This document shows, in pieces, positions 28,157 through 48,615 of a stretch of 64,000 bases of DNA (the stretch's first letter is position 1; each line of letters starts with the position of its first letter). This stretch comes from an uncultured Planctomycetia bacterium (GTDB lineage Bacteria; Omnitrophota; Gorgyraeia; B26-G9), in assembly GCA_964437495.1 (NCBI GenBank), contig CAYTGV010000003.1:17910-81909 (forward strand), given 5' to 3'. The notes below the pieces were generated by a model. It had not been told where the DNA came from, ran no database searches, and saw only the letters and a program-made list of their open reading frames with translations. Position numbers and translations under genes: made by a program.

Positions 28157-28168
28157 ATAGGAGGCTTA

Positions 28169-28351: not shown

Positions 28352-28464
28352 GCATTATTGTTGTATTTTTTGTACTTTGATTGCTCTAACTATATGAATG
28401 TTGTATAATAGATACTAACATTGTATATTTCAATAATAAAGACAATAATATTATTGAGGGAGAT

Positions 28465-28911: not shown

Positions 28912-29675
28912 AGGATGAAATTCAAAAATTATTAGATAATTATAATTTGTGGTTAAAAGATAGAACCGTTCTGAAACAAATTACTGATAAATGGGTTGAA
29001 ATTACTACGCCTCATCTTGATCGGCATAATGATTGTTTGCAGATTTATGTATTCAAACAAAATAATGGCTATTTAATAACAGATGATTCATATATAATTA
29101 CTGACTTAGCAAATTCAGGGTGTACTATAGATACTCCTAAGCGTCAAGAGCTTCTTAGGATGACTTTAGCTGGTTTTGGAGTGCAATTAGATGGTGATCG
29201 TTTAGTTGTTCATGCTACTTTTGAAAATTTTTCGCAAAAAAAACATAATATTATTCAGGCAATGGTGGCAGTTAATGATCTTTTTTATTTGGCGTCTCCT
29301 TATGTGTCTAGTATTTTTTATGAAGATGTTGCCAAATGGCTTGATCTTTCCGACATACGTTATACCCCTAAAGTTAAATTTACTGGTAAAACAGGGTATG
29401 ATTATATGTTTGATTTTGTAGTGCCTAAATCTAGGCAAGCACCTGAACGGATTTTACAGACAGTTAATAATCCTAAAAAAGATTCTGCTGAAGCCCTGCT
29501 TTATAGATGGATGGATACAAAGGAAACAAGACCACCAGATTCTAGATTGTATGCCTTTTTAAATGATTCCAATTTTCGTGTTTCGCAATCTGTTGTTGAT
29601 GCATTGGCAAGTTATGATGCGGTTCCTATTTTGTGGTCAAACCGTGAAGGGACACGCAAAGCATTATGTTCTTAG
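28908..29675 (+). CDS. DUF1828/DUF1829-type protein (255 aa)
   Basis: N-terminal LWLKD ... [20 protein letters not shown] resembles DUF1828 N-terminal region, C-terminal half DUF1829-like; assignment from memory of family consensus. Confidence 0.45.
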
Positions 29676-29809
29676 ATTTGTTATGATTAAAGGTCACATA
29701 TAATATCTAAAAAGAGGTCTCTTACTGCAATAAGTTGTTTTTTGAGTAGAATACGTTTACTTAATAGGTGAAAATCTAAAACTTAAATATTTTCGAAAAA
29801 GGGTATCAA

Positions 29810-32800: not shown

Positions 32801-33001
32801 GGCGGTCTACCCAGACAAACTTCAAAGACTTTATTGAAAGAACTTCAAAAAGAATTGAAAAAAGGAGTTAATCCATTAAAGATATTAGCAATTTTAAAGA
32901 TGAATATTCCTGCTGAATTTTTACAAGAAGCTGCTTTTCAAACTGCTGCTCAAATTTTCGGCCCCAGAGAAGTGATTTTATCAGAATATTTTAAAGGTTG
33001 A
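29810..33001 (+). CDS. PLD-family (HKD) nuclease domain fused to SNF2/DEAD-like helicase (1063 aa)
   Basis: N-terminal NIHAKLYIMTF ... ITGSSNFTEAG is the HxK(x)4D(x)6GSxN PLD motif. Helicase domain shows Walker A GLGKTYVSALLA, DEAH-like FIDEAHRF, motif VI MQRVGRINR, and C-terminal STEVLSEGVNLHRSNVVINYDIPWNP. Confidence 0.8.
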   Translation: MSSDLTFITNEKNKHLLDRFKVLIKDTRFFDVLVGYFYTSGFHALYKSLESTEKIRILIGISTNKETVTLFNKANYNLQPTFQFSHAEVKKEFENHVSEEMENSEDNPHVEEGVLKFIEWLKIGKLEIKAYPTQNIHAKLYIMTFTEDDRDKGRVITGSSNFTEAGLRDNLEFNVELKNRSDYDFSLQKFNELWEDAVDVKDKYIESIQTKTWLNDTITPYELYLKFLYEYFKEDLSQPEEVFYRYVPSEFMKLEYQEQAVLNAKRILDEYGGVFISDVVGLGKTYVSALLAQQLDGRTLVIAPPVLLDKCNPGSWPNVFSDFKVAADFESLGKLDSLIKRGADKYKNIFIDEAHRFRTETNMTYEKLAQICRGKRIILVTATPYNNSPKDILSQIKLFQKGRNSTIPNLPDLERFFGALGKRIKKLDRQKDYKEYISIVRNNAKEIREKVLKYLMVRRTRNEIVNHFSRDLKEQNLKFPDVADPEAIFYELNDEEDKVFTQTIELIAKKFKYSRYTPLLYYQGKITQPEELAQRNMGKFMKILLIKRLESSFFAFRNSISRFIVSYTHFLNELDKGNVYVSKKHMSKLFDLLENDDEEAIQRLIEEDKAKKYDAKDFKKDFKNDLKHDLGILLTIKRLWETVKRDPKLLAAKQKLSSRKILKEQKLIIFTESKETADYLSGHLNELYKDKVLCFSGSSSARIRERVIENFDAKARYPKDDYRILVSTEVLSEGVNLHRSNVVINYDIPWNPTRLMQRVGRINRVDTKFNKIHSFNFFPTKQSNDQIKLKEAAEGKIHAFISMLGADARLLTEGEPIESFELFNKLLSKKTITGEDEHEESELKYLQVIKEIRDKNIDLFEKVKRLPKKSRTARILKDAKNALLTYFRKGKLHKFYMVRMKTEPEELDFISAAKRLEASQSEKREKISKDLYELLEKNKQAFHHATFEEVPEIKGKGGRDTVTLVLRILKTNDIRRYKGYTEDDELYIKKVIKEVEEGGLPRQTSKTLLKELQKELKKGVNPLKILAILKMNIPAEFLQEAAFQTAAQIFGPREVILSEYFKG

Positions 33002-33005
33002 CCTA

Positions 33006-36000: not shown

Positions 36001-36530
36001 GGAAACGTGTGGCTGGCGAGTATGGAGAAAAGGCCAAAAAAGCTAAAGGATTATTTAAGCGTGATGATCAGGGCATAACACCTTATAACTTAAGAAATTG
36101 TGCATATATCCCTAGTTTAGAGTTGGGTAAGATTATTTGGGCAGAAATAGTATTTGATTCTGCATTTTATTATGATGAGGATAACTATTATCCTGAGGCA
36201 ACATGTTTTGTCATGATAGGTAATAGGTTAAAGTACTTACAGGCTCTACTAAATTCTAAATTACTAACGTTTGCATTTAGAAAGTATTATGCTGGAGGAG
36301 ATTTAAGAGGTAATACTTTTAGATACAAGAAAGTTTTTGTTGAAAAACTGCCTGTGCTACGAATTTCTGAGCGCGAACAGCAATCTTTTGGAAAAATAGT
36401 AGATAAGATAGTTGGTGATAAAAAGAAAGGTAAAGATACTCTTATTTTGGAAGAAGAAATTGATGAACTTGTGTTTGATCTCTATGCTTTGACTGCAGAA
36501 GAACGAGAACAGGTAAGGAATTCATACTAA
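33006..36530 (+). CDS. large gamma-class N6-adenine DNA methyltransferase with C-terminal target-recognition region (PglX/MmeI-like, 1174 aa)
   Basis: Motif I VCDPAVGSGAFLVG (FxGxG), motif IV VGNPPYVQ (NPPY), about 430 aa C-terminal extension; separated by 4 nt from helicase gene (operon). Confidence 0.75.
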   Translation: MERKQANKIVKDTFENPFNKEQFVYFIKNLLNHIEETPGTLYRGNYIPDAYAPYVNTLERLGKYLDADERSIDVLIVNLKKNTSLERARTMQRNFIAWYLNGSRGGVLKDAALVAFVSPAQEDWRFSLVKMEYSLDTSGEKVKTKKELTPARRFSFLVGKNENTHTAQSYLSPIIADESKDLNLSNIENAFSIEKVTKEFFEKYRDLFLKLTDSLNEIVKKDQKVRADFKNRGVETVNFTKKLLGQVVFLYFLQKKGWFGVGRDEEWGTGPKNFLRLLFEKKIVDYNNFFNDILEPLFYEALATEREDSFYSRFNCKIPFLNGGLFDPINNYDWVHTDIVLLNDIFSNKHKTKEGDEGSGILDVFDRYNFTVKEDEPLEKEVAVDPEMLGKVFENLLEVKDRKSKGTYYTPREIVHYMCQQSLCNYLAEELKEKITKEEIDTLIKYGESAIEHDSRVETYGKETKTYSFKLSENIRKNASLIDEKLSDIRVCDPAVGSGAFLVGMMNEIVRVRNALTTYLRDKKQRTFYDFKRNAIHYSLYGVDMDPGATEIAKLRLWLSLVVDEEDIKQIKPLPNLDYKIMQGNSLIEDLVINNIVIKFNLDDVVKVDRRTKKTKELFKKEVQHTLFKDKSEDIFEELKKLHSVYFEENNKNKRLILKEKIVSTEQLFITAKCEEEIERLNVFKNNCRDRKRISNVESQIKTIHSTLRKLKKEGTKPFFLWKLNFSEVFIDKGGFDVIVGNPPYVQLQKTGGELANVYEQCDYVTFSRTGDIYTLFYEKAHRLLRTHGIACLITSNKWMRAGYGKLIRRYFIDVVSLLILIDFGDAPLFKNATTYTNILLFKNIPPSDCRCSVYDLSKEKGVEGRLLYYLRNLQGKYISNFTEVSYLIVNKYEFQIKQKVEAKGIPLKNWDIDIYRGILTGFNEAFIINTEIKERLCREDPNCLKIIKPILRGRDVKRYKAEFAGLWLINTHNGYDNEPPVDINDYPVIKDYLKEIERKRVAGEYGEKAKKAKGLFKRDDQGITPYNLRNCAYIPSLELGKIIWAEIVFDSAFYYDEDNYYPEATCFVMIGNRLKYLQALLNSKLLTFAFRKYYAGGDLRGNTFRYKKVFVEKLPVLRISEREQQSFGKIVDKIVGDKKKGKDTLILEEEIDELVFDLYALTAEEREQVRNSY

Positions 36531-36626: not shown

Positions 36627-36966
36627 CAAAAACACACCTTTTTAAAAAAATATTTCGCCGCCGCCAAAAAAAGAAATAAACGTTCAATTATGAGGGTTTT
36701 GCTCGGGAGAGGACGCAGGGATGCTAAACGAAGCCATTTCTGGCGAAGTGAGGCAGACCAAAGCCGGATCGTAGTAACGCATGAGCACGAAGCGAGCGGC
36801 CCAGCGAGCGAGGCAGTGAGCCGAAGCCCCAGCTGAGGCGAACGGTGCAAACACTGCCCAAGTAGCCCCGCCGAAGGCGGGGCGGTGCATCATAAAGTCA
36901 ATTCAGGTAGGAAAACAGTAAAAAGGAATGGTTTGAGAACTTTGTAGAGTGCAATCCAAGGGTCAA
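36627..36966 (-). repeat. GC-rich repeat 'a' (copy 2, inverted)
   Basis: Reverse complement aligns base-for-base with 26362-26692, with scattered substitutions. Confidence 0.7.
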
Positions 36967-37141
36967 CCGAATGTCTTAATGTAGAAACTTTTCGGCGAAT
37001 TTTTGTAAGCCGTTGATTTTGTTGACATTGTGATTTTCTTTCTGTTTCTGAAAACAAAAAATTAAAAGGGGGGAAAAGAGAAAAAGAAATTCTTTTATGG
37101 GGTCGAGCGCCGCCGATGGCGGGGGCGATTTTGATGTTTTT
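36967..37141 (-). repeat. inverted copy of miaB promoter/5'-start segment 'r' (near-identical to 45395-45569); with repeat 'a' forms an attP-like junction
   Basis: Reverse complement of 36967-37141 is almost identical to 45395-45569, including ttctacattaagacaTTCGGttg; continues into repeat 'a' instead of miaB. Confidence 0.7.
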
Positions 37142-37142
37142 C

Positions 37143-37318
37143 GTCTTGCTCTCGCTAATGTCTCGCAATCCGTCACACATCTCCCTAGATGTGCGTTAAA
37201 AAGCAGAAAAAAAGAAAAACCCCCACCCACCCGAAAATTGTCTCTGTGCTCGGACTTCTACGCCTCTGGCGTATTCGTTCCCTGCGCTCAGAGCCAATTT
37301 GTTCCCCCTAAAAATGGA
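37143..37318 (+). repeat. repeat 'b' (copy 2), followed by TTGACA...TAAAGT promoter of second island operon
   Basis: Similarity to 26738-26852 (gtcttgctNtcg ... ccccacccacccg ... cctgcgctcagagcc). Confidence 0.5.
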
Positions 37319-37358: not shown

Positions 37359-37541
37359 ATGGAAAAACGATATAATTTAAGCAAAGCGGCAAAAGAATTA
37401 GGCATCACTCGCCAAGGTCTTTATTACTGGATAAAGAAAGGGTGGGTTACGCCTAAACGTGATTTTAAGAATCATCCTGTTTTTACGGATGCTGATTTGA
37501 AAAAGATTAAAGGGTGGATGAATAAATTAAAGGATTCCTGA
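37359..37541 (+). CDS. excisionase/AlpA-like HTH DNA-binding protein (candidate recombination directionality factor or regulator), 60 aa
   Basis: LSKAAKELGITRQGLYYWIKKGWV helix-turn-helix of excisionase-type; first gene of second island operon. Confidence 0.5.
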   Translation: MEKRYNLSKAAKELGITRQGLYYWIKKGWVTPKRDFKNHPVFTDADLKKIKGWMNKLKDS

Positions 37542-37543
37542 TT

Positions 37544-39148
37544 ATGAATATTGAAATCTTTATTGGGTTCTTAGGGCTTTTGATTACGATGTATGCTATT
37601 GCCCCAGAGGTGGTCAAGGCTAGGGTTCATGCTTTTATTAATCCATTGCTGTTTAAAATCGCGATACCTTTATATATAGTTGTATCTTTGTGCGTTCTTT
37701 ATTTTGAGCATTATTACTTAGATGATGTTTTAATGTGTGAAGTTTTATTTTGGGCAAAATATCTTTCTTATTGTGGGATATTCTTGTTAATATGGTTTAT
37801 CTATACATCTTTGAGAGATAGAAAGCTGGGGAAATCAAATATTGAAAGGTTTTATAAATTCCTAAAAGTTCTTTTGTCAAAGCAGCAGTTTTCAATATTA
37901 ATTGATATATTACATGGTAGTCTTAAATACATACTTCCATTATATAATGTTCAAGCAAAACCTGAAAAGTGTAAGAAATTAAAAAATACCATTATGGTTG
38001 GCGGCAAGGTTATTCCTTTTCCAGTTTTTCCATCTGATTCTTTTGAGACAGAGATTTCAAAAAAGATATTTAGAGACGTAATTTTTAACGAATCGTTCAT
38101 AAGGGCAAATATTCATTATGGGAAAAATTTTTCTATTGATTTTATAAGTGGTTGTAGAAAAAATAAAATACACATAAGTGATTATTCGGACTTGTTTCTT
38201 TATGAGCTTTTAAAAAACAAAGACTCTTTCCTCTATCAAGAATTAAAAGAAACGCTTACAGTCTATTCTCCAAGTAACGATGAATTTGATAGGTTTCCAT
38301 TTTTACATGTATTATTTGAGGATATTAAATACTTTAATGAACAGGGATTTTATAGAGGAATAGGGGAGTATGTCATTGAATTTGTTGATAGAAATATTGA
38401 CAGTAATAATGAGCGATATAGCCGTAGTACTAAATATTATTGGGATCAACGTGAGCGAGATGGTAAATACAAATGTCCTGTTTATATGGGACTTAGTTAT
38501 TTTACATATATGGTGAACAAGGCTATACGTGAGAATATTCAAAGCCATATGTGGCTTTTGTATGTTCATTATTGGGTTAAAGCGATATGTAAGAAAATGG
38601 TTTACTATGAAGATGAATGGCAGGGGGGCGGTGAGTTTCCTACAATTTACTGTTATTTGCTTTATGAGCTGCTTGGTATCCATGGCAATTGGGTTAAGCA
38701 TATATATGAAGTTTCAAGCGAGGAACAACATGGTAGTTCTTTTCAGCAGGACGATAAATCAATTGATATAAGTGAGGAAAGGGAGTTAATTTTAGAATGG
38801 ATACTTAAGGATATGCTTTATTGTGCTGATAGTATCGCGCAATGTGAAGCCATCCCCTATGATAAGCGTGTGTACTTACTTAAAACGTTTATGGGTGTAA
38901 ATATTGGGATAAAAAGCAACTTTTCTCAATACGGGAAAGCTTGTATTGCAAAAGCCACCAATTTAAATAAAGTTATTAGTATATATATAGATGAGTTTGA
39001 AAAAAGAATACGTAACAAGAATTACTCAAAAGCTTTTAACGAAGATTTAAAAAATGCGTGTCAAGATGCATTAGAATCAATGGATACAATTCCTTTAGAC
39101 AGTAATATTGTTAGATTTTGGAAGGGCTGGCTCAGTGGATTACAGTAA
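37544..39148 (+). CDS. membrane-anchored protein of unknown function (534 aa; 3 N-terminal TM helices + large cytoplasmic domain)
   Basis: Hydrophobic segments at residues about 5-20, 40-55, 75-90; no recognisable catalytic motif; start 3 nt after HTH gene stop. Confidence 0.4.
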   Translation: MNIEIFIGFLGLLITMYAIAPEVVKARVHAFINPLLFKIAIPLYIVVSLCVLYFEHYYLDDVLMCEVLFWAKYLSYCGIFLLIWFIYTSLRDRKLGKSNIERFYKFLKVLLSKQQFSILIDILHGSLKYILPLYNVQAKPEKCKKLKNTIMVGGKVIPFPVFPSDSFETEISKKIFRDVIFNESFIRANIHYGKNFSIDFISGCRKNKIHISDYSDLFLYELLKNKDSFLYQELKETLTVYSPSNDEFDRFPFLHVLFEDIKYFNEQGFYRGIGEYVIEFVDRNIDSNNERYSRSTKYYWDQRERDGKYKCPVYMGLSYFTYMVNKAIRENIQSHMWLLYVHYWVKAICKKMVYYEDEWQGGGEFPTIYCYLLYELLGIHGNWVKHIYEVSSEEQHGSSFQQDDKSIDISEERELILEWILKDMLYCADSIAQCEAIPYDKRVYLLKTFMGVNIGIKSNFSQYGKACIAKATNLNKVISIYIDEFEKRIRNKNYSKAFNEDLKNACQDALESMDTIPLDSNIVRFWKGWLSGLQ

Positions 39149-39267: not shown

Positions 39268-40149
39268 ATGAGAAATATAAATAGATATTTTTGTCGAGCA
39301 TTAGATTCCAATAACACATTTTCGCCAAGTGTTCATTGGGAGCATTGTCTTTTGTTAGAAAAGGCAATGTTGGATATATTACAATATATTCCCATACATG
39401 ATGGGATGCCGGATGAGAATTGGAAAGTTAGCAGTCCAAAATTAATAGATATATTTGTCAAGTCATGCTTCCTTTTTGAAGCGGCATTTAAAGGTATTTC
39501 AAATGAACCAACGGATCGTATTGTCAACTATCTTAAACAAAATGCATATGTATGGAGTGAATATTTTCTTGATGGAAAAAATCGCAACGGCAAATGTAAA
39601 GAATTAGATATTTGCGATTTTTTAACCTTTTATGACGCGTATTGTTCCTTGAACTTCTTAGAAGCAAGAATCAGATGTTCTCAAAATATTAGTGACGTTT
39701 GGGTAAATAAAATGACTGTAATTCGTCCATTTTTTAATATGAAACTCGAAAATAATGTAGTAATTAAATCCCCTGATTGGTGGAAAAAATACACACAAAT
39801 TAAACATAATTTTTATTCCTATCCACAAGAAATTAATTTGGAAGCTACAATTGAAGCTTTAGCTGCATTGATATCTTTCACCGCAGTTGTTCCTCAGATG
39901 CGTCGATTACTCTGCGATCATGGGTACATACAGGATAATTTTAAAAAACCTTTTGATATTGAAAAAATCGGACGAAAAATTAATGATAAATTTGTTAAGG
40001 ACCCTTGGGTTAACCATAAAAAAATGTTCTTCGAGGAATATGATGATATTGATACGATGCCCGCTATTGCATGTGTATCAGATTTATTTATAGTACCTTT
40101 TGTAGGCGATTATAGAAAAGCTAGATTATGGTCGGGGATAGGAAAATAA
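39268..40149 (+). CDS. hypothetical protein (293 aa), no recognised domain
   Basis: ORF in operon context; Cys/His-rich, W-rich C-terminal region. Confidence 0.35.
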   Translation: MRNINRYFCRALDSNNTFSPSVHWEHCLLLEKAMLDILQYIPIHDGMPDENWKVSSPKLIDIFVKSCFLFEAAFKGISNEPTDRIVNYLKQNAYVWSEYFLDGKNRNGKCKELDICDFLTFYDAYCSLNFLEARIRCSQNISDVWVNKMTVIRPFFNMKLENNVVIKSPDWWKKYTQIKHNFYSYPQEINLEATIEALAALISFTAVVPQMRRLLCDHGYIQDNFKKPFDIEKIGRKINDKFVKDPWVNHKKMFFEEYDDIDTMPAIACVSDLFIVPFVGDYRKARLWSGIGK

Positions 40150-40268: not shown

Positions 40269-41060
40269 ATGGCACATTTAACTACTAATGAAAAACAAAT
40301 TCTTGAGAAGCTCTTTCAACTGGGAGGGGGCTATGTTTTGAATTTTTCTGATAGAACCATGGGGGAGTTTTTTAAAGACGATGTTGGTATTGATATATAC
40401 GATGAAAAGTATAATTATGCCAGTGGTTCAAAGGCTAATCGTATGCGTGGATTTTGGCGTGAGGCAAATAATGCAATAGTTAGCGCCTCGATTATTAAAT
40501 TAGTTGAGTATCTTAAAAACCAGATGCTTTTAGGCGAATTGAAAGAGAAAGAATTTCCTGAAAAATTATTACAGCGTGCTTTACAAATAGCGAGTAAATT
40601 AGCCGCAAATGATAACAAGAATGTGGTTTTTACAGTAAAGCCAATCAAAACACTTGTAGCCCAACTTCAAGAAGCTAAATTAAAAGATGGTAAAATTACT
40701 ATAACTTTACACAAGAAAGTTTTTGACCACGTTCAAAGCCTTCTGTCTGATGGACACTACTTTAATGCAGTTGAAGAAGCATATAAAATCGTTAGAAATA
40801 AATTGCGCGATGTTAGCGGTAGCGAGAGGGCAACGGATGCTTTTAAAGAGGCTAACTATGAGCGTATTTTTGGTCATAATCCGGCAAATCAAGCGGAAAA
40901 AGATTTTTATGAAGGAGTAAAATTTTTACATATGGCTATACAGTTTTTAAGGAATGAAAAAGCTCATACACCAGCATATGATTTAGATAAAAATTTGGCA
41001 ATTCATTATATAGCACTAGCTAGCTTGGCGTATGATTTGGTTGATAGGCAAAAGAAGTAA
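40269..41060 (+). CDS. HEPN-domain protein of the TIGR02391-like family (263 aa)
   Basis: C-terminal FLRNEKAHTP (R-x4-H HEPN motif) within GHYFNAVEEAYKIVRNKLRD ... context typical of TIGR02391/Abi-associated HEPN. Confidence 0.5.
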   Translation: MAHLTTNEKQILEKLFQLGGGYVLNFSDRTMGEFFKDDVGIDIYDEKYNYASGSKANRMRGFWREANNAIVSASIIKLVEYLKNQMLLGELKEKEFPEKLLQRALQIASKLAANDNKNVVFTVKPIKTLVAQLQEAKLKDGKITITLHKKVFDHVQSLLSDGHYFNAVEEAYKIVRNKLRDVSGSERATDAFKEANYERIFGHNPANQAEKDFYEGVKFLHMAIQFLRNEKAHTPAYDLDKNLAIHYIALASLAYDLVDRQKK

Positions 41061-41144: not shown

Positions 41145-43916
41145 ATGAATTGTTTGACAGGTTCATTGTGGCGTAAATGGGATTTGCATGTGCATGCTCC
41201 GGGAACAAAACTTAATGATGGATATAAGGTTGAAGATGGAAAAAATGTCTGGGATGATTTCTGCAAAATTGTAGAAGAATCTGATGTTGAGGTTTTTGCT
41301 ATTACGGATTATTTTTCAACTGATGTATATAAAACTTTTAAAATTGAGTATCAAAAAAGATATCCAGAATCAAGAAAAAAGTTCTTTTTGAACATTGAAC
41401 TTAAACTTAATGAGTCAGTAAATAGTAAATCAGAAGAAATTAATTTACATTTAATCTTTAATCCATTATCCGCTGATAAGGCTGACGATTTCTTGAGTAA
41501 TTTGAAGCTTGTAAAAACAGGGAAAGATGGAATCTCAATAAAGTGTTCAGACTTAAATTCAGTTGATGACTATAAATCGGCAACTGTTACAAGAGATTTT
41601 ATCGAATTTGCATTTCAGGAGACCTTTGGAAAGAAAGCTATTCGGCAAGATCATTTTCTTATTTTTACAGCTGCTAATAATGAGGGGATTCGTCCTGAAA
41701 AAGGTAAAAAGAGAAAAGAAATTATAAGTGATGAAGTTGATAAATTTAGCGATGTTTTTTTGGGAGGGGCGCAAAATGTAGTGTATTTTTTGGGAGAGGA
41801 TAGGCTTGAAGATAATGAACAGAAAATAATCAAAAAACCTGTTGTCTCAGGTAGTGATTGTCATTCCTTTCAAGATTTAAATGCATTTCTTGGGAAGAGG
41901 GTTATTAAAAATATTGATGGGAAAGAAATAATTATAAAAGATATCACTTGGATAAAGGCAAATCCAACCTTTGAAGGTTTAAAACAGATAATTTATGAGC
42001 CAGAGCCTGGAGAACGGGTTTATATCGGCACACTCGAACCTGATAGGAAAAATGATTTTCAAATAATACGAAAAATAAGGTTTGAAAATTCAACTGATTT
42101 TCCTACTGAAATTTATTTCAACAATAACCTTTGCTCTATTATTGGCAGTAGATCTACTGGTAAATCGGCGTTACTTGCATATATAGCGCATTCTATAGAT
42201 AAAGATTTAGCTGAAATGCTGAGGCCTGGCCCAGGAGATGGGGATGATTACCATTGGGATAAAATTGATATTGATTGTTTTGTGGAGTGGGGGAATGGAA
42301 TTTCTTCTAATGATGCTAAGTGAAAGGTAGTTTATATACCGCAAAATTATCTACTTGATAAAAGTAAAGATTCAGAAGAGATAAAGAATAAGATTGAACC
42401 GGTATTGTTTAAAAAATTTACTGAGTTCAAACTGCGATATGAGCAGGCGAAAAAACAGATAGCTGATTGTAATGCTAATATTTCTGATTATGTGAATACT
42501 TGGATTAAATTAGCAGATGCAATTTGTTCGTTTGCAAAAAGTCTAAAAGACTTAGGGGATAAAGAAGGAATTAAGAAAGAAAATAAAAATACTGAAATAA
42601 AAATAGAAGAGCTTAAAAAAAAGTATCAGTTAAGTGAAAGTGATGTTAAAAAATATAAAGAGATAAGTTCTGACTTATCTATGTATGAAGTAAATATCAA
42701 AGAAAGGGAAAAAGAGCTTGCTCAAATTGGTAGTGAAGGGGAAATAGATCAATTTTTTTCATCATTAAACTGGACTTTTGTTCCAAATATCGAAAGTTTG
42801 CCACAGAAGTTGCAAGATGTAATTAAAAAAGAAATGGAAGATGTTGACAACGGAATTCTAAAAAAAGCAAATGAACTAGTTGTTAAATATAAAATTAAGC
42901 TAGATAAAGATATAGATGATTCTGAAAAAGCAATCATCGGAATTAAAAGTGTTAATAATATCTTAATTGAAAAATATCAGAAAAATATTGAGCTCAATGC
43001 GCTTATCAAGAAAATAGAGGGGCTTAATAAGAACTTGCAAACTATAGAATCATTAGAGAAAGAGATAAATATAAAAAGAGTGTTATTGGGTGAATGTCAA
43101 AAAAACATTGATATAGAAATAAGCAAAAGAGAGGATCAATTTAAACAGCTTAAGGAAGATCTTGAAGCTAAAGATCAAAAAGGAGCCGATATAGAATTTA
43201 ATATTGAATATGGATTAAATCCTGGAGATGTGGAAAGGGTTGCAAAAAAAATAAATTTAAAGGAAAGATCCGATTTCGTTGAAAAAAACGAATTAAAAGT
43301 AGATGACATAAGAAAAAAATCAAACGAATTTTTAAAAGCAATTTATTTTGGAAAGCAAAAAATAAATTCAGGTAATATAAAGAAAGATGTTATAGAAGAT
43401 ACGCTAACGTTGACCGAGAATATTTTATTTGCTGCTAAAATGGAAGGGGATCGGATAGGAGGCTTTCTTGAAACTACCATGACTCCTGGCAGGCGAGCTC
43501 TTTTTCTTTTAAGATTGATTCTGGACGAATCAGATGATGCTTGGCCTATTCTCATTGATCAGCCAGAAGATAATTTAGATAGTAGATCTATTGCTAAGGA
43601 AATAGTTCCATTTTTTAAAGGCAGGAAAAAAGAAAGACAAATAATTATGGCTAGTCATAATGCAAATCTCGCAATTGGAGCAGATTCAGAACAAATCATT
43701 GTAGCAAATAGACATGGACAAGATAAGCCAAATTTAGATGGAAAGCAGTTTAATTATTTAACAGGTGGTATCGAAAACACAAAAGAGAAGTCTGAAAAAA
43801 TCAAGGACACGCTAGGATCTCAAGGTATTCGAGAACATGCATGTGAAATATTAGATGGTGGAAAAGAGGCTTTTGAATACAGAAGAAACAAGTATAATTT
43901 TAAAAAGAGATATTGA
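41145..43916 (+). pseudogene. PHP-domain + SMC/ABC-type ATPase (Ppl/PplA-like single-gene defence protein) interrupted by one in-frame TGA (42321-42323)
   Basis: N-terminal WDLHVHAPGT...DG PHP motif. Walker A GSRSTGKSALLAYI. After the stop comes a long coiled-coil, then Walker B/D-loop ILIDQPEDNLD and H-loop MASHNANL. ORFs 41145-42323 and 42405-43916 are in the same frame with no other stop between them. Confidence 0.6.
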
Positions 43917-43918
43917 AA

Positions 43919-45580
43919 ATGCAAGTTGCTTTATATATTAGAGTTTCTACCGAAGATCAAGCAAAAGAGGGATATTCTCTTGAAGTCCAAAGAGAATATC
44001 TTGAATCTTTTGCTAAGCGCGAATGCTTTGAAGTTTTTAAAATCTATTGTGATGAGGGGATAAGTGCCTACTCTACTAGACGAGAAGCGTTACAGCAATT
44101 AATAAAGGATTCTAAGGATAAAAAGTTTGATCTTGTGCTTGTTTATAAAATAGACCGCTTTAGTCGTAAGCTAAAAGACCTTTTAAATTTGGTTGATGAG
44201 TTGTCTTCTTATGGTGTTGGCTTTAAGTCTGCAACTGAGCCTTTCGATAGCACAACATCAGCAGGAAAGTTGATGTTTCAGCAATTAGGTTCCTTTGCAG
44301 AGTTTGAGCGAAATCGTATTTCTGAGAGAGTATTCCCTGGAATGGTTAAAGGTGTTCAACAAGGCAATTGGCAGGGAGCGAGGTTTTCACCGTTTGGCTA
44401 TACTTACAATAAAGAAAAAAAGCTATTAGAAGTTGAGCCTCGGGAAGCGGATATTGTTAAGTTGATTTATACAATGTATCTAACTGGCAAAAGCACGCAT
44501 GAGATTGCTGAGTATTTGAATAAGAAAAAATATCAAACTAGGACAGGAAAACAATTTTATACTAAATTTATAGGTGATATTTTAAAGAATAGAATTTATA
44601 CAGGGAAGATCGTTTGGAATAAAAAGCATTATGATAAAAATCAAAAAACAAAGAAGCATTATAAATATATTAAAAATGATGCTTCAAAAATTATAATTGC
44701 TCAAGGCAAGCATGCTCCAATAATTGATGAGCAGGATTTTGAAGCAGTACAGAAGTTATTAGCTGAAAAGAAAAGAACATGGCGGCCAAGAGTAAAAAAT
44801 AAAGAGTATCTTTTAACTGGTTTGCTTACTTGTACGAAATGTAATCATAAATACAATGGAGTATCATCAATATCAAATCATAGAACTAATAAAAAGAAAC
44901 GATGGTATCGTTGCTCAGGGCCTTATGCTAATCATATTAGATGTACAAATGGATCAGTCAAGGCAGAGGATATTGAACCGGAAGTTACAAAGATTGTGGC
45001 TCAGTTGATTCAAAATGATAGGTTAAAACAGAGCCGATGGATGAGCGGGACTTTGCCAAAAAGCGCAAATTTTCCCAATTTTGGCAAAAATACCAAAATT
45101 GACGCATCTAAACTTAAAAATAAGCTTGAAGATAACCAAAGAAAGCAGTCAAAACTAACAGACGCTTATTTGGAAAATTTGCTTGGAGAAGATGTGTTTC
45201 GTGGTAAGATAGAACAACTTCGCAAGGAAGAGGATGAACTAAAGATAATCCTTGCAGGATATGAACTTAGGGAGATTGAAAGCGAAAGATCAGAAGGGTA
45301 TATTAACAGAGTAAAAGACTTTTTGGATGGGCATGACGAGGCTAAGTCAGCAATAGATTTTGCTACCAAGAAAGCGATGTGCGGACTGCTTTTTAAAAAC
45401 ATCAAAATCGCCCCCGCCATCGGCGGCGCTCGACCCCATAAAAGAATTTCTTTTTCTCTTTTCCCCCCTTTTAATTTTTTGTTTTCAGAAACAGAAAGAA
45501 AATCACAATGTCAACAAAATCAACGGCTTACAAAAATTCGCCGAAAAGTTTCTACATTAAGACATTCGGTTGCCAGATGA
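43919..45580 (+). CDS. large serine recombinase (integrase) of the integrated element
   Basis: N-terminal resolvase catalytic domain with catalytic-Ser context YIRVSTEDQ...DRFSR. Followed by recombinase domain and Cys-rich zinc-ribbon LTCTKCNHKYNG...RCSGP and coiled-coil. The ORF 3' end runs into the att/miaB-promoter repeat and overlaps miaB start. Confidence 0.85.
   Translation: MQVALYIRVSTEDQAKEGYSLEVQREYLESFAKRECFEVFKIYCDEGISAYSTRREALQQLIKDSKDKKFDLVLVYKIDRFSRKLKDLLNLVDELSSYGVGFKSATEPFDSTTSAGKLMFQQLGSFAEFERNRISERVFPGMVKGVQQGNWQGARFSPFGYTYNKEKKLLEVEPREADIVKLIYTMYLTGKSTHEIAEYLNKKKYQTRTGKQFYTKFIGDILKNRIYTGKIVWNKKHYDKNQKTKKHYKYIKNDASKIIIAQGKHAPIIDEQDFEAVQKLLAEKKRTWRPRVKNKEYLLTGLLTCTKCNHKYNGVSSISNHRTNKKKRWYRCSGPYANHIRCTNGSVKAEDIEPEVTKIVAQLIQNDRLKQSRWMSGTLPKSANFPNFGKNTKIDASKLKNKLEDNQRKQSKLTDAYLENLLGEDVFRGKIEQLRKEEDELKIILAGYELREIESERSEGYINRVKDFLDGHDEAKSAIDFATKKAMCGLLFKNIKIAPAIGGARPHKRISFSLFPPFNFLFSETERKSQCQQNQRLTKIRRKVSTLRHSVAR
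45395..45569 (+). repeat. element right end 'r': replacement promoter + first 20 codons for miaB, ending at attR core TTCGG
   Basis: Near-identical inverted copy at 36967-37141. Confidence 0.7.
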
Positions 45581-46809
45581 ATGACCGCGATTCTGAGCTT
45601 GTTGCCGGGCTTTTGATCAAAAAAGGCTATAAACTTGCGGACTCTATTGAAGGCGCGGATATTATTCTGTTTAATACCTGCAGCGTCAGACAAAGGGCTG
45701 AGGATAAGGTCTGGTCTGCGATTGGGAAGCTGAAAAAGCTTAGGACTACAGACCACAGACCACAGACCACAGTTAAAAGCAAAAAAAAAGAATCTATTAA
45801 CTATAGACCATTGACCATTGACCATCGACCAATTATTGGCCTCATTGGCTGTATGGCCCAGGAATGGCAGCAGGCAGTGTTTAATAAGACTCCCTTGGTA
45901 GACCTGGTGGTCGGTCCGAACAATATTTCAGCTATCCCTGGGCTATTAGATGACATGCAAACATCTAATGCAAAAGGCCTGGCTGTCGGAGCTGATCAAA
46001 GAGATGCAAAAGTGTATAATACAGAATATATTGGAGAGATTTCCCATTGTAATGTTAATATAATGGAGGGATGTAATAATTTCTGCTCATACTGTATCGT
46101 GCCGTATGTCAGGGGCAGGGAAAGCAGTCGTCCGGCTGAGGATATTATAAAAGAAATAAAGGCCTTGGTAAAAAAGGGAGTAAAGGAAATAACGCTTTTG
46201 GGGCAGAATGTCAATAGCTACAACAGCGCATCTGTAATTACAAATGACAAATTACAAATGACAAATAAAAAACAAAAGGATGTAGGGGGGGGGCTTGCCT
46301 CCTCCCGTAATAAAAAAACATTCACTGATTTATTGAAAATGGTTAATGATATTAAGGGGATAGAAAGATTTGACTTTGTGACCTCTAATCCTAAAGATGC
46401 CAATACGAAACTGTTCAAGACCATGGCTGAACTGACAAAATGTAAAAGGTTTTTACATTTGCCAGCACAGTCCGGCTCTGATAGAATATTAAAGAAGATG
46501 GGCCGCGGTTATACGCGCAGTAAATATCTGGGGCTTATTAAAAAAGCAAGGCAGATAATGCCTGATCTGAGGATGACTACAGATATTATGGTCGGCTTTC
46601 CGGGTGAGACAAAAAAGGATTTTGAAGATACATTTGATCTAATGAAACAGGTGCAGTTCAGTGCGGCATATATTTTTAAATATTCGCCGCGGCCGTTTAC
46701 CAAGGCTGCTAAAATGGAAGATGATGTTTCTCAAAATGAAAAAAAGCGCAGAAACCAAATATTGCTTGAATACCAGAGAAGTCTACATAAAAAAAGAAAG
46801 CAATTATGA
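45508..46809 (+). CDS. miaB: tRNA-i6A37 methylthiotransferase MiaB (radical SAM MTTase) with two in-frame low-complexity insertions
   Basis: FYIKTFGCQMND MTTase N-terminal, CxxxCxxC radical-SAM (CNNFCSYCIVP), C-terminal TRAM; insertions at about 45745-45840 and about 46228-46318. Confidence 0.9.
   Translation: MSTKSTAYKNSPKSFYIKTFGCQMNDRDSELVAGLLIKKGYKLADSIEGADIILFNTCSVRQRAEDKVWSAIGKLKKLRTTDHRPQTTVKSKKKESINYRPLTIDHRPIIGLIGCMAQEWQQAVFNKTPLVDLVVGPNNISAIPGLLDDMQTSNAKGLAVGADQRDAKVYNTEYIGEISHCNVNIMEGCNNFCSYCIVPYVRGRESSRPAEDIIKEIKALVKKGVKEITLLGQNVNSYNSASVITNDKLQMTNKKQKDVGGGLASSRNKKTFTDLLKMVNDIKGIERFDFVTSNPKDANTKLFKTMAELTKCKRFLHLPAQSGSDRILKKMGRGYTRSKYLGLIKKARQIMPDLRMTTDIMVGFPGETKKDFEDTFDLMKQVQFSAAYIFKYSPRPFTKAAKMEDDVSQNEKKRRNQILLEYQRSLHKKRKQL
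45750..45833 (+). repeat. in-frame heptanucleotide microsatellites inside miaB ((gaccaca)x3 and (gaccatt)x3-4)
   Basis: actacagaccacagaccacagaccacag ... ctatagaccattgaccattgaccatcgacca read directly. Confidence 0.7.
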
Positions 46810-47591
46810 ATAAGAAATTTAAAATCTTGTGTCTTGTGACTTGTGTCTTGTGTCTTGTGGGCAGTTCTGTGTCCAATGTTTATGCTTATAAATACAATAG
46901 GTCTCTTGATGCAGCATTGACGCTTATGCTGCATGGCGAATATCAAAGTGCCTTAGATGAGTGCTGGAATCTGGAACACATTGAAAAAAAGGAGCTTAAA
47001 GGTGAAATCTGGTATTTAAGGGGAATCTGCTTTATGGAGCTTAATATGTATGTCCAGGCACGCAAGGTCTTTAAAGAAGCGATTCCTTTTGCCAAAGGAG
47101 ATCTTTCTACAGAGATTTATATTGGCATTGCGGATTCTTATTTTATAGAGAGAAAATACAGCAAAGCGATTACAATCTATGAACAGCTTCTAAATAAGAT
47201 AAAAAATGAGGATGCGTATTTGTGTGCTTTTTATTATAAGCTTGGTAAATCATTTCAGAAAGAAAGCCAGTGGTCGAAAACAAAGTATTATTTCAATCTG
47301 CTTGAGAGAAAATTCCCCGATAGCCTTGAATCCAAACTTGTTAAAAAATCATCTGTCGGAGGAAATTTCTTTACTATCCAGGTCGGTTGTTTTTCTAATA
47401 TCAGGAATGCGGAAAAACTCCAGCGTGATTTAGAGGTAAAGGGCTATGAGGTTTATCTCACTCCTTTTAAAAGTAACGGTAGACAGTTCTACCGTGTAAG
47501 GGTCGGAGAATTTATGAGCCGGATAGCGGCTCAAAATACTGAAGCAATGCTTAAATCAAAAGAGCATCTGCCTACTCACATTTTCCCCTAA
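46806..47591 (+). CDS. TPR-repeat lipoprotein/secreted protein with C-terminal SPOR peptidoglycan-binding domain
   Basis: Signal peptide; TPR-like helices; C-terminal FTIQVGCFSNIRNAEKLQRDLEVKGYEVYL ... YRVRVGEF SPOR consensus. Confidence 0.6.
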   Translation: MNKKFKILCLVTCVLCLVGSSVSNVYAYKYNRSLDAALTLMLHGEYQSALDECWNLEHIEKKELKGEIWYLRGICFMELNMYVQARKVFKEAIPFAKGDLSTEIYIGIADSYFIERKYSKAITIYEQLLNKIKNEDAYLCAFYYKLGKSFQKESQWSKTKYYFNLLERKFPDSLESKLVKKSSVGGNFFTIQVGCFSNIRNAEKLQRDLEVKGYEVYLTPFKSNGRQFYRVRVGEFMSRIAAQNTEAMLKSKEHLPTHIFP

Positions 47592-47601: not shown

Positions 47602-48615
47602 ATGCTATTATTTGCCTTGTGCAAAGAGGTGAAGAATAACAGAAAATCAAGCAATAGTGAAAATATTGCAGAAAGCAATTATATCGTGAATATGAAAAAA
47701 CCAATGATAATATTTCTAGTCGGACCTACGGCAAGCGGTAAATCAGGTGCGGCAAATGAGCTTGCCAGAGAGATCAATGCGGAGATTGTTTCTGCTGATT
47801 CTATGCAGGTCTATAGAGGTATGGATATTCTAAGCGCAAAGCCGGATATTAAAGAGCAAAAACAAATATCGCATTATCTGATAGATATTTTAGAGCCGTC
47901 TGAAGAATATAGCGCGGCGATCTTTCGCAATAAGGCCTTAAAGTGCATTGAAGATATAATAGCTCGCAAGAAAATACCTCTATTTGTCGGCGGCACAGGC
48001 CTATATGTAAAAGCGCTCACAAAAGGGCTTTTTTCTGATAACGGCAAGGATGAGAAACTGCGCAAGGAGTTAGCACAAGAAGCCAAGCATAAGGGCAATG
48101 CATGTCTTTATGAGAGATTGCAGGCTGTTGATCCAAGGGCCGCAGAAAAAATCCATCCCAATGATATGCGTCGTATTATTCGTGCACTTGAGGTATATGA
48201 GTTAAGTAGTCGGACGATAACAGAGCTTAAAACAGAAATTGAAGGTCTGGATGAAAAATATGAGTTTAAAATATTTGCTATTGAAAGGGAGCGCAGAGAA
48301 CTCTATGGCCGGATTGAATTAAGAGTAGAAAAAATGTTTGAGGCTGGACTGGTCGATGAAGTAAAAAGATTGATAGCTCTGCCCTTAAGCCATACTGCAA
48401 AACAGGCCTTGGGTATAAAACAGATCAGCGCTTATCTGAACAAAGAATGCTCTCTTGATTTTGCCAAAGATCTGCTTAAGCGCGATACCCGGCGTTTTGC
48501 TAAGCGCCAGCTTACATGGTTCAGGGCGGAAAAGGATATTGTCTGGACTCCAGCAGAACCGGAAACTACCCCCCAGGAATTATCTGCAAAAATCCTTTCT
48601 TTCTTGAATCTTTGA
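47602..48615 (+). CDS. miaA: tRNA dimethylallyltransferase MiaA (probable true start at ATG 47692)
   Basis: IFLVGPTASGKSGAANELAREINAEIVSADSMQVYRGMDI P-loop / MiaA signature. Confidence 0.85.
   Translation: MLLFALCKEVKNNRKSSNSENIAESNYIVNMKKPMIIFLVGPTASGKSGAANELAREINAEIVSADSMQVYRGMDILSAKPDIKEQKQISHYLIDILEPSEEYSAAIFRNKALKCIEDIIARKKIPLFVGGTGLYVKALTKGLFSDNGKDEKLRKELAQEAKHKGNACLYERLQAVDPRAAEKIHPNDMRRIIRALEVYELSSRTITELKTEIEGLDEKYEFKIFAIERERRELYGRIELRVEKMFEAGLVDEVKRLIALPLSHTAKQALGIKQISAYLNKECSLDFAKDLLKRDTRRFAKRQLTWFRAEKDIVWTPAEPETTPQELSAKILSFLNL

What the first reader, a model, noticed from the sequence alone, without database searches (positions are those of the whole stretch)
41145..43916. Ppl-like PHP + ABC-ATPase defence gene split by a single in-frame TGA
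41145-42323 (PHP motif WDLHVHAPGT...DG, Walker A GSRSTGKS) and 42405-43916 (coiled coil, Walker B/D-loop ILIDQPEDNLD, H-loop ASHNANL) are in the same frame. The only stop between them is TGA at 42321-42323. Together they form a protein of about 920 aa with the architecture reported for the single-gene Ppl anti-phage system (PHP domain + ATPase). TGA is a genuine stop elsewhere in this genome. So this is a nonsense-inactivated defence gene, a sequencing error, or programmed readthrough; no SECIS-like context was evaluated.
Basis: partly seen in the sequence, partly recalled or inferred. Interest (0 to 1): 0.6.

Follow-up and report, generated by a model that had tools for sequence, protein, structure and literature searches.

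The report
Defence gene broken by stop codon
A 923-codon gene for a nuclease-plus-ATPase protein of the TrlF family (a distant relative of the Ppl anti-phage protein) carries one premature TGA stop in place of a universally conserved glycine, so it is most likely a recently killed gene, which is an ordinary event.

Summary
Positions 41145-43916 are one reading frame with a single internal stop, TGA at 42321-42323. The joined product is a full-length TrlF-family protein (NCBIfam NF045780, 460 bits, cutoff 350). It has a PHP nuclease domain and an SMC/Rad50-like ABC ATPase with a coiled coil. This is the Ppl architecture, but the protein fails the Ppl model (54 bits, cutoff 1000).

In 114 intact orthologues (915-972 aa) the TGA column is Gly in 113. 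Orthologues use GGA or GGG there, so one G-to-T change explains the stop. It lies seven codons before the invariant Q-loop glutamine.

TGA is a normal stop here. It ends 17 of 50 long ORFs, and it ends this gene at the C-terminus seen in orthologues. No hairpin follows the stop, and the window has no tRNA gene or Rfam match. The first in-frame restart codon lies beyond the Q-loop. The same TGA is present in three separately assembled metagenomes, one with a SNP elsewhere, so an assembly error is unlikely.

The downstream 530 codons are intact and keep 86 of 89 conserved residues, so the lesion is recent.

Verdict: an ordinary nonsense pseudogene in a serine-recombinase-linked defence island next to miaB. 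Low interest. The island's nested inverted repeats are unexplained.

The parts
41145..43916 (+). TrlF-family gene (PHP nuclease domain + SMC/Rad50-like ABC ATPase), disrupted by one nonsense codon; 923 sense-codon positions
   Evidence: NF045780 scores 460 bits (cutoff 350) over residues 6-918. Orthologues cover 99-100% of the query at up to 64% identity.
41145..42320 (+). N-terminal fragment (392 aa): PHP domain and the Walker A lobe of the ATPase head. PHP residues H15/H17 lie at 41187-41195, D55 at 41307-41309, E85 at 41397-41399, H102 at 41448-41450 and D238/H240 at 41856-41864. Walker A GSRSTGKS lies at 42144-42167.
   Evidence: The PHP fold is supported by the AlphaFold model of orthologue P0001, which matches RNase AM (9etk, 7ug9) and the Pol III alpha PHP domain (2hpi). 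There is a good ribosome-binding site before 41145 (AAGAGGTG, -9.6 kcal/mol).
42321..42323 (+). Premature TGA replacing an invariant glycine (codon 393)
   Evidence: The column is Gly in 113 of 114 orthologues. Orthologue codons are GGA, GGG and GGA. The TGA is identical in L001, L002 and L090.
42324..43913 (+). Remainder of the gene, still open. It holds the strand and Q-loop VVYIPQNYL (42327-42353, Q400 at 42342-42344), a coiled coil of about 270 residues, a probable signature motif TMTPGRRAL (43476-43502), Walker B/D-loop ILIDQPEDNLD (43548-43580) and the H-loop ASHNANL (43650-43670).
   Evidence: The query keeps 86 of 89 columns that are at least 95% conserved downstream of the stop. Assignment of the Q-loop and signature motif is inferred from SMC/Rad50 topology.
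42405..42407 (+). First in-frame start codon (TTG) after the stop. It lies 28 codons downstream, beyond the Q-loop, and has no Shine-Dalgarno match.
   Evidence: -1.5 kcal/mol.
43914..43916 (+). Natural TGA stop of the gene, at the C-terminus seen in orthologues
   Evidence: The tail after Y917 is 6 residues, against 2-7 in orthologues.
43919..45580 (+). Large serine recombinase immediately downstream (Resolvase + Recombinase + Zn-ribbon domains). Its last 60 or so codons run through the right arm of the inverted repeat and overlap the miaB start.
37359..37541 (+). 60-aa MerR/excisionase-like HTH gene at the left end of the cassette that carries the pseudogene
36964..37141 (.). Left arm of a perfect 178-nt inverted repeat bracketing the 8.25-kb cassette. 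It is an inverted copy of the miaB upstream region plus its first 65 nt.
45395..45572 (.). Right arm of the 178-nt inverted repeat. It contains the miaB start (45508).

Best explanation
This is a TrlF-family gene that a single G-to-T substitution (GGA Gly393 to TGA) has recently inactivated.

Intact proteins of this family have three parts: an N-terminal PHP metal-dependent phosphoesterase/nuclease domain, an SMC/Rad50-type ABC ATPase head, and a long antiparallel coiled coil that splits the head. By analogy with the distantly related single-gene Ppl system, I infer that the ATPase senses or gates and the PHP domain degrades nucleic acid during phage infection. This function has not been shown for TrlF.

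Termination at codon 393 would give a 392-aa product with the PHP domain and the Walker A lobe only. It would lack the Q-loop, coiled coil, signature motif, Walker B, D-loop and H-loop, so it cannot form an ATP-hydrolysing head. The rest of the gene is not separately translatable in a way that keeps the Q-loop.

The allele is fixed in the sampled population. The gene shows no further decay, so the lesion is young.

Shown: the stop, its position, the family, the fold, and reproducibility across assemblies. Inferred: the defence role, loss of function, and recency.
For: - One internal TGA in an otherwise full-length frame.
- 114 intact single-gene orthologues have Gly (113) or Arg (1) at that column. 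The three orthologue codons checked are GGA, GGG and GGA, and GGA is the commonest Gly codon in this gene at 23 of 52.
- TGA is a normal stop in the window. It ends 17 of 50 ORFs of at least 150 codons, and standard-code (table 11) ORFs of 150 codons or more sum to 58 kb in the 64-kb window. It also ends this gene where orthologues end.
- No stable structure follows the stop (z = +0.54). The window has no Rfam family and no tRNA gene.
- The first in-frame restart is TTG at 42405, after Q400, with no Shine-Dalgarno match.
- The TGA is identical in JGI 3300031657 (L090), ENA ERZ27316756 (L001, which differs from the window by one SNP at 44292) and ENA ERZ27317826 (L002).
- Family and fold: NF045780 at 460 bits against a cutoff of 350. 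The AlphaFold model of orthologue P0001 has pLDDT 87.5. It matches SMC, JetC, MukB and Rad50 heads, and RNase AM and Pol III PHP domains.
- Conserved columns retained are 55 of 57 upstream and 86 of 89 downstream, and there is no second lesion.
Against: - The 530 codons after the stop are completely intact and as conserved as the upstream part. This fits a very recent lesion, but it equally fits continued selection on a product made by readthrough.
- No intact allele of this lineage was found. The best relative is 64% identical, so the ancestral GGA is inferred, not observed.
- No reads were available, so minor intact alleles cannot be excluded.
- UGA is the leakiest bacterial stop (general knowledge), so some full-length protein may be made.
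Confidence: 0.8

Rival explanations
1. The gene is still partly functional through spontaneous or context-enhanced UGA readthrough. Near-cognate tRNA-Trp is the usual decoder. Readthrough would give a low level of full-length protein, perhaps a useful way to keep a toxic nuclease scarce.
For: The downstream 530 codons are intact and keep 86 of 89 conserved residues. The allele is the only one seen in three assemblies. UGA is the leakiest stop in bacteria (general knowledge).
Against: The replaced residue is an invariant Gly in a turn just before the Q-loop strand. Trp there is unlikely to be tolerated. No structure or known recoding signal follows the stop. None of the 114 orthologues uses a stop here. 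A recent lesion explains the intact downstream part equally well.
Confidence: 0.07
2. The two pieces work together as a split protein. The N-terminal piece would carry PHP and Walker A, and the C-terminal piece the coiled coil, signature motif and Walker B. SMC and Rad50 heads can be reconstituted from two halves in this way.
For: Gene callers predict two ORFs, 392 aa and 503 aa. SMC-type heads are naturally formed from N- and C-terminal halves (general knowledge; fold matches).
Against: The first in-frame start after the stop is TTG at 42405, with no Shine-Dalgarno match. It lies 21 residues past Q400, so neither piece would contain the invariant Q-loop strand. All 114 full-length orthologues aligned are single unbroken proteins, and the seven whose genomic contexts were examined are each one gene.
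Confidence: 0.04
3. The TGA is a sequencing or assembly error and the real genome has GGA.
For: A single-base difference from a sense codon is the kind of change an error could produce. No reads could be inspected.
Against: The TGA is identical in three separately assembled metagenomes from JGI and ENA. One of them carries an independent SNP at 44292, so it is a different consensus. The context GCTAAGTGAAAGG has no homopolymer run longer than three bases and no simple repeat.
Confidence: 0.04
4. The UGA is decoded on purpose. One option is glycine, by a tRNA-Gly(UCA) as in genetic code 25 of Gracilibacteria/Absconditabacteria, supplied by the host, a donor lineage or an infecting recoded phage. 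The other option is selenocysteine.
For: The stop aligns exactly with an invariant Gly, which is what code 25 would give. One of the closest orthologues (P0003) is annotated as from a Patescibacteria-group MAG.
Against: - Of the 106 codons in this gene that are one step from TGA, 23 (22%) are GGA, so landing on Gly is unremarkable.
- The window is densely tiled by standard-code (table 11) ORFs. 17 of 50 end in TGA, and ORFs of 1029-1184 codons contain no TGA.
- The same gene uses TGA as its real stop.
- The other cassette genes have no in-frame TGA.
- The window has no tRNA gene.
- Selenocysteine normally aligns with Cys, not Gly, and needs a hairpin directly downstream. None is present.
Confidence: 0.02

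Closest known systems
TrlF family AAA-like ATPase (NCBIfam NF045780), named after TrlF of the Photorhabdus laumondii Temperature Restricting Locus trlR-trlF-trlG (bioRxiv 10.1101/2020.06.02.129163)
   Same: The end-to-end profile match is above the curated cutoff (460 bits against 350). Length and domain order are the same. The family is annotated on plasmids of Lactococcus, Citricoccus and Companilactobacillus. Photorhabdus TrlF was annotated as a histidinol phosphatase, i.e. a PHP protein.
   Different: This copy has a premature stop. The window has no TrlG (AlbA_2 + HATPase_c_4) partner. Only one of the seven orthologue contexts (L004) has an AlbA_2 gene downstream. No biochemical or defence function has been shown for TrlF itself. 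In Photorhabdus, all temperature-tolerant mutations mapped to trlG, not trlF.
Ppl single-gene anti-phage system of E. coli (PHP exonuclease + NTPase)
   Same: It is a single gene of about 900 aa with an N-terminal PHP domain followed by an ATPase. The weak matches to the PADLOC Ppl model are collinear: fragment 1 residues 268-353 align to model 223-310, and fragment 2 residues 385-463 to model 776-852. Ppl is described as a ssDNA 3'-5' exonuclease that is inhibited by NTPs and activated by 3'-OH ends (PMC12904381).
   Different: It fails the curated Ppl model (NF042955, 54 bits against a cutoff of 1000, C-terminal 130 residues only). The PADLOC Ppl score is only 44.5 bits. No function has been tested for this family.
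Spaf_1101 family AAA-like ATPase (NCBIfam NF045781)
   Same: The C-terminal ATPase lobe is similar (78 bits, residues 782-918).
   Different: The score is far below the cutoff of 475, and only the C-terminal lobe matches.
SMC/Rad50-type ABC ATPase heads with coiled coils (Smc, MukB, JetC of Wadjet, Rad50, LmuB of Lamassu, AriA of PARIS)
   Same: These are the best structural matches of the ATPase part of the orthologue model (Foldseek E-values 1e-9 to 1e-4). The protein has Walker A, Q-loop, Walker B/D-loop and H-loop in the same order, with the coiled coil inserted between the two head halves.
   Different: The coiled coil is much shorter, at about 270 residues. The head is fused to a PHP nuclease instead of working with separate kleisin or nuclease subunits. 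Sequence identity is 9-14%.
RNase AM (YciV) and the PHP domain of DNA polymerase III alpha
   Same: The N-terminal domain of the orthologue model matches them structurally (9etk E = 1e-4; 7ug9 target TM-score 0.56; 2hpi). The metal-binding His/Asp/Glu set is conserved: H15 (Gln in 21 of 114 orthologues), H17, D55, E85, H102, D238 and H240.
   Different: There is no Pfam PHP hit by sequence, either in the window protein or in 10 orthologues. The substrate is unknown.

Membership tests
TrlF family (NCBIfam NF045780) | Whole-protein score above the curated cutoff (350 bits) with an end-to-end match | tested here: met
   The score is 460.4 bits, with residues 6-918 aligned to model positions 2-944 of 944. 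The stop codon was entered as X.
TrlF family (NCBIfam NF045780) | One uninterrupted ORF of about 900-970 aa | tested here: not met
   The window copy has a TGA at codon 393. All 114 full-length orthologues are uninterrupted. It is therefore a disrupted member, i.e. a pseudogene.
TrlF family (NCBIfam NF045780) | Operon partners TrlG (AlbA_2/HATPase_c_4) and TrlR, as in the Photorhabdus TRL locus | tested here: not met
   No AlbA_2 protein lies next to the gene in the window. Only 1 of 7 orthologue contexts has one (L004). The partner is therefore not a family-wide feature.
Ppl anti-phage protein (NCBIfam NF042955 / PADLOC PDLC02208) | Score above the curated cutoff (1000 bits) over the full length | tested here: not met
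   One search gives 54 bits, residues 780-913 only. One search gives PADLOC Ppl scores of 44.5 bits (C-terminal fragment) and 15.1 bits (N-terminal fragment).
Ppl anti-phage protein (NCBIfam NF042955 / PADLOC PDLC02208) | Single-gene architecture: N-terminal PHP domain plus NTPase | tested here: met
   In the orthologue model, the PHP fold is followed by an SMC-like ABC ATPase. The catalytic residues are conserved in the window sequence.
Ppl anti-phage protein (NCBIfam NF042955 / PADLOC PDLC02208) | Demonstrated protection against phage; 3'-5' ssDNA exonuclease activity regulated by NTPs | not testable with these tools
   This needs expression of the repaired gene and phage and nuclease assays.
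SMC/Rad50-type ABC ATPase | Walker A, Q-loop, signature motif, Walker B, D-loop and H-loop, with a coiled coil inserted between the head halves | tested here: met
   All motifs are present in the conceptual full-length translation. The stop separates Walker A from every other motif.
PHP (polymerase and histidinol phosphatase) domain | Match to Pfam PF02811 by sequence | tested here: not met
   There is no PHP hit at E <= 0.01 in the window protein or in 10 orthologues.
PHP (polymerase and histidinol phosphatase) domain | PHP fold with a conserved metal-binding His/Asp/Glu set | tested here: met
   One search shows matches to RNase AM (9etk, 7ug9) and Pol III alpha (2hpi). One search shows H17, D55, E85, H102, D238 and H240 are at least 97% conserved and present in the query.
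Bacterial selenoprotein gene | UGA aligned with Cys in homologues, and a SECIS hairpin directly downstream | tested here: not met
   One search shows the aligned residue is Gly. One search shows no stable hairpin (z = +0.54). One search shows no Rfam match.
Genetic code 25 or 4 (UGA as a sense codon) | UGA frequent inside conserved genes and not used as a terminator | tested here: not met
   17 of 50 long ORFs end in TGA. ORFs of up to 1184 codons contain no TGA. This gene ends in TGA at the C-terminus seen in orthologues.

The most novel reading that the evidence does not exclude
The UGA at codon 393 could be a conditional switch rather than a lesion. Full-length, active TrlF would be made only when a UGA-decoding tRNA is present. 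One candidate is a tRNA-Gly(UCA) of the code-25 type, or another suppressor, brought in by a recoded phage or mobile element. The cell would then arm this nuclease specifically on infection by code-switching invaders.

The evidence does not exclude this. The stop sits exactly on an invariant Gly, the downstream 530 codons are pristine, and only this allele is seen in the population.
Probability: 0.02. Interest if true: 0.85.

Novelty: new member of a known kind. Interest (0 to 1): 0.15.

Why it matters
This matters little beyond annotation. The two ORFs that gene callers report as separate hypothetical proteins (392 aa and 503 aa) should be annotated as one TrlF-family pseudogene.

It is one more example of a costly defence gene being switched off by a point mutation inside a mobile defence island.

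It also makes clear that PHP + SMC-like ATPase genes of this type belong to the large TrlF family. That family gave about 2,600 hits in this search, is found on plasmids and recombinase-linked islands, and has no tested function. Ppl is only a distant relative.

A repaired GGA version of this gene, or an intact orthologue, would be a reasonable candidate for testing whether TrlF proteins defend against phages.

Tried and rejected
1. Alternative genetic code (4 or 25). Rejected on stop usage and ORF tiling and on the gene's own terminal TGA.

2. Selenocysteine. Rejected because the aligned residue is Gly. There is also no hairpin, no Rfam hit and no tRNA gene in the window.

3. A second in-frame TGA split at 3450-5042. 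This is simply an ArsR-type regulator followed by a permease with its own start.

4. Search for an intact or alternative allele. The pattern TCTAATGATGCTAAGNGAAAGGTAGTTTATATACCGC had no match in the metagenome contig collection. The exact-protein look-up for the JGI copy of the C-terminal fragment found nothing on record, and that copy differs only in how the TTG start is translated. The best full-length relative is 64% identical.

5. Sequence search against solved structures. No hit at E <= 1.

6. Pfam PHP by sequence. No hit. The fold search was needed instead.

7. Literature on TrlF. The first two searches returned mostly spectroscopy (TRLFS) papers and other unrelated papers. The origin of the name was found only through the trlG/trlF search.

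8. Organism identification. The nearest MiaB relatives are only 44-46% identical (Omnitrophota and other MAGs). No source gives the window's proteins a name. No empty-site comparison was therefore possible.

9. The GC-rich 365-nt repeat. There is no Rfam match even at E <= 1, no significant fold (z = -1.2 and -0.4) and no match in metagenome contigs.

Full report
**Observation**

Translating 41145-43916 in one frame gives 924 codons. There is one internal stop, TGA at 42321-42323 (codon 393), and a terminal TGA at 43914-43916.
- WDLHVHAPGT, residues 12-21
- GSRSTGKS, residues 334-341
- ILIDQPEDNLD, residues 802-812
- ASHNANL, residues 836-842

Mechanical ORF listing gives 41145-42323 (392 aa) and 42405-43916 (503 aa, TTG start) in the same frame.

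**What the gene is**

The joined product, with X at the stop, matches NCBIfam NF045780 'TrlF family AAA-like ATPase' end to end. It scores 460 bits against a cutoff of 350, with residues 6-918 aligned to model positions 2-944.

It scores only 54 bits against the Ppl model NF042955, whose cutoff is 1000, and only over the last 130 or so residues. PADLOC's Ppl model gives weak but collinear matches to both fragments, at 15 and 44.5 bits.

A search of 5.8 billion proteins returned 2,613 relatives. The best 120 are mostly single proteins of 915-972 aa that cover 99-100% of the query at 43-64% identity.

An AlphaFold model of the closest orthologue (P0001, 60-sequence alignment) is confident, with mean pLDDT 87.5 and pTM 0.73. 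It shows an N-terminal alpha/beta domain, an ABC-type head and a helical hairpin of about 270 residues. Foldseek against the PDB matches two groups:
- the head and coiled coil match Smc, condensin, cohesin, MukB, JetC, Rad50, LmuB and AriA (E = 1e-9 to 1e-4);
- the N-terminal domain matches RNase AM (9etk, 7ug9) and the PHP domain of Pol III alpha (2hpi).

Pfam's PHP model does not hit by sequence. The metal-ligand set is nevertheless at least 97% conserved across 114 orthologues and present here: H17, D55, E85, H102, D238 and H240. H15 is His in 91 orthologues and Gln in 21.

The 'PHP + ABC ATPase, Ppl-like architecture' reading is therefore right. The family is TrlF, and Ppl is only a distant relative.

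The name comes from the Photorhabdus laumondii Temperature Restricting Locus, trlR-trlF-trlG. There TrlF was annotated as a histidinol phosphatase, and every selected mutation fell in trlG, not trlF (bioRxiv 10.1101/2020.06.02.129163). No function has been shown for TrlF.

**What aligns with the stop**

In an alignment of the query with 114 full-length orthologues, the TGA column is Gly in 113 and Arg in 1. It sits in the block 'SPG-K-[IV]-V-Y-I-P-Q', seven residues before a Gln that is invariant in all 114. By SMC/Rad50 topology this Gln is the Q-loop, which is an inference.

The three closest orthologues whose DNA I fetched use GGA, GGG and GGA at this codon. GGA is the commonest Gly codon in the window gene, at 23 of 52. 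A single G-to-T transversion therefore explains the stop.

Landing on Gly is not remarkable. Of the 106 codons in this gene that lie one step from TGA, 23 are GGA.

**Is TGA a stop here?**

Yes.
- Standard-code (table 11) ORFs of at least 150 codons sum to 58 kb in the 64-kb window.
- 17 of those 50 ORFs end in TGA.
- ORFs of 1029, 1073 and 1184 codons contain no TGA.
- This gene's own terminal TGA falls where orthologues end, with a tail of 6 residues after Y917 against 2-7 in orthologues.
- The window has no tRNA gene and no Rfam family.
- The 96 nt around and after the stop fold no better than shuffled sequence (z = +0.54).

Selenocysteine and a code 4 or 25 reading are therefore unsupported.

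**Is it an artefact?**

The same TGA is present in three places:
- a JGI assembly (3300031657, L090, 21.6 kb identical to the window);
- ENA ERZ27316756 (L001);
- ENA ERZ27317826 (L002).

L001 differs from the window by one SNP at 44292 in the recombinase gene, so it is a separate consensus. The local sequence has no homopolymer run longer than three bases and no simple repeat. An assembly error is unlikely. Reads were not available.

**Could it still work?**

The first in-frame start after the stop is TTG at 42405. It is 28 codons downstream, past Q400, and has no Shine-Dalgarno complementarity. Several real genes here also have weak Shine-Dalgarno sites, so that last point is weak evidence.

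Neither predicted fragment would contain the Q-loop strand, so a two-piece enzyme is improbable.

Readthrough by a near-cognate tRNA cannot be excluded. The usual insertion would be Trp, which would replace an invariant Gly in a turn.

The 530 codons after the stop carry no further lesion. They keep 86 of 89 columns that are at least 95% conserved, against 55 of 57 upstream. Leave-one-out values for intact orthologues average 98%, with a 5th percentile of 94-95%. The simplest reading is a recent inactivation.

**Context**

The gene lies in a defence-type island. The genes, in order, are:

| Coordinates | Gene or protein |
|---|---|
| 27013-28068 | DUF1016/SNase nuclease |
| 28390-28911 | DUF6978 protein |
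| 28896-29675 | DUF1828/1829 protein |
| 29780-33001 | PLD-SNF2 helicase |
| 32976-36530 | Eco57I/MmeI-type methyltransferase |
| 37359-37541 | Excisionase-like HTH |
| 37544-39148 and 39268-40149 | Two proteins with no family hits |
| 40269-41060 | TIGR02391/Hypoth_Ymh protein |
| 41145-43916 | The TrlF pseudogene |
| 43919-45580 | Large serine recombinase |
| 45508-46809, 46806-47591, 47602-48615 | Housekeeping genes miaB, a SPOR/TPR protein and miaA |

This order rests.

Seven orthologue contexts show a single intact gene with variable neighbours:
- restriction-modification methyltransferases in four;
- large serine recombinases in three;
- a TrlG-like AlbA_2 protein in one.

TrlF-family genes are also annotated on Lactococcus, Citricoccus and Companilactobacillus plasmids. 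They are nearly absent from phage genomes, with one 62%-coverage hit. This pattern fits a stand-alone, mobile defence-type gene, although no defence function has been tested.

The host is an uncultivated bacterium. Its MiaB is at most 44-46% identical to any species representative. The best matches are mostly Omnitrophota MAGs, together with a Makaraimicrobium MAG.

**Side observation, unexplained**

The 8.25-kb cassette carrying the pseudogene is bracketed by a perfect 178-nt inverted repeat, 36964-37141 and 45395-45572. The right arm is the miaB upstream region plus its first 65 nt. The recombinase ORF runs through it with a low-complexity tail.

A second, imperfect inverted repeat has arms at 26333-26692 and 36629-36993. 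It is 92% identical and GC-rich. It brackets the restriction-like module.

Aligning the three junctions shows a shared 'TTCTACATTAA[A/G]AC[C/A]TTCGG[C/T]TG' sequence, which encodes the MiaB N-terminal motif FYIKTFG. At 26362 and at 36964 (minus strand) it is followed by the GC-rich repeat. At 45572 it is followed by the rest of miaB.

This looks like attachment-site junctions of a serine-recombinase element that targets the 5' end of miaB, with one junction duplicated in inverted orientation. I could not derive a clean history. A short-read contig (L001) ends inside the repeat at both sides, as expected for a real inverted repeat longer than the assembler's k-mer. Whether the cassette inverts is untested.

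**Verdict**

This is a real, reproducible nonsense codon in a TrlF-family (PHP + SMC-like ATPase) gene. It is most likely a recent pseudogene (confidence 0.8). The remaining probability is split as follows:
- low-level readthrough, 0.07
- functional split, 0.04
- sequencing or assembly error, 0.04
- programmed Gly or Sec decoding, 0.02

The finding is ordinary, and interest is 0.15.

Noticed in passing
window 36964-37141 and 45395-45572: A perfect 178-nt inverted repeat brackets the 8.25-kb cassette (HTH, two unknown proteins, Hypoth_Ymh, the TrlF pseudogene, the serine recombinase). The right arm contains the miaB start and 113 nt upstream. An independent MEGAHIT contig (L001) ends inside the repeat on both sides. 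The cassette may be invertible. Three longer assemblies show the same orientation as the window.
   Followed up: partly
window 26333-26692 and 36629-36993: A second inverted repeat of about 365 nt is 92% identical and about 53% GC in a 36% GC genome. It brackets the PLD-helicase/methyltransferase module. There is no Rfam match even at E <= 1, no significant RNA fold on either strand, and no match in metagenome contigs.
   Followed up: partly
window 26326-26362, 36964-36993 (minus strand), 45545-45572: There are three copies of a miaB 5' motif (FYIKTFG, TTCTACATTAARACMTTCGGYTG). Two are joined to the GC-rich repeat at '...GGYTG|ACCCTTGGATTGC' and one continues into miaB. 26326 carries an ATG (MNRKFYIKTFG*), which looks like an orphaned miaB start. 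The pattern resembles attL-type junctions of an element inserted in the miaB 5' end.
   Followed up: partly
window 26763-26848 and 37221-37313: A direct repeat of about 90 nt (74% identity, 'CCCACCCACCC...GTGCTCGG...CTGCGCTCA') lies just inside the left boundary of each of the two cassettes. It may be a shared promoter or recombination box.
   Followed up: no
window 45395-45580: The serine recombinase ORF continues for about 60 low-complexity codons through the inverted repeat and overlaps the miaB start by 73 nt. Its natural C-terminus seems to have been replaced at the repeat boundary. A GC-rich hairpin with flanking T/A runs at 45408-45440 looks like a bidirectional terminator.
   Followed up: no
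window 44292: This is the only difference between the window and contig L001 over 8.5 kb. It is C/T at codon position 2, giving Ser/Phe in the 'QQLGSFAEFER' motif of the recombinase catalytic domain.
   Followed up: no
window 27013-36530: The neighbouring defence-type module holds a DUF1016_N + SNase-like nuclease, DUF6978, DUF1828/DUF1829, a 1073-aa PLD + SNF2/ResIII helicase and a 1184-aa Eco57I/MmeI-type methyltransferase with a TaqI_C specificity domain. It was not classified further.
   Followed up: partly
window 37544-39148, 39268-40149, 40269-41060: Three cassette genes lie upstream of the pseudogene. The 534-aa and 293-aa proteins have no Pfam, NCBIfam or PADLOC hit. The third is a TIGR02391/Hypoth_Ymh protein with a weak PD-Lambda-3_B match (E = 5e-5). 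They may form their own defence system.
   Followed up: no
L004 10821-12206; L003, L088, L089: One TrlF orthologue is followed by an AlbA_2 (TrlG-like) gene, as in the Photorhabdus TRL operon. Three others lie within a few kb of large serine recombinases, as in the window. This suggests the family often travels on serine-recombinase elements.
   Followed up: partly
proteins P0072, P0081, P0089: Several orthologues on contigs of 17-39 kb are truncated at the N- or C-terminus (728-798 aa). Disrupted copies may be common in this family. I did not check whether they sit at contig ends.
   Followed up: no
window 3450-5042: Two stop-to-stop ORFs are adjacent in one frame and separated by TGA. They are an ArsR-type regulator ending '...CCL*' and a permease with its own ATG, so these are two ordinary genes and not a second split.
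   Followed up: yes
window 1-64000: There is no tRNA or tmRNA gene and no Rfam family at gathering threshold anywhere in the 64 kb. Almost all genes from 0 to 52 kb are on the + strand, with steadily rising cumulative GC skew where it was profiled (22-50 kb).
   Followed up: no
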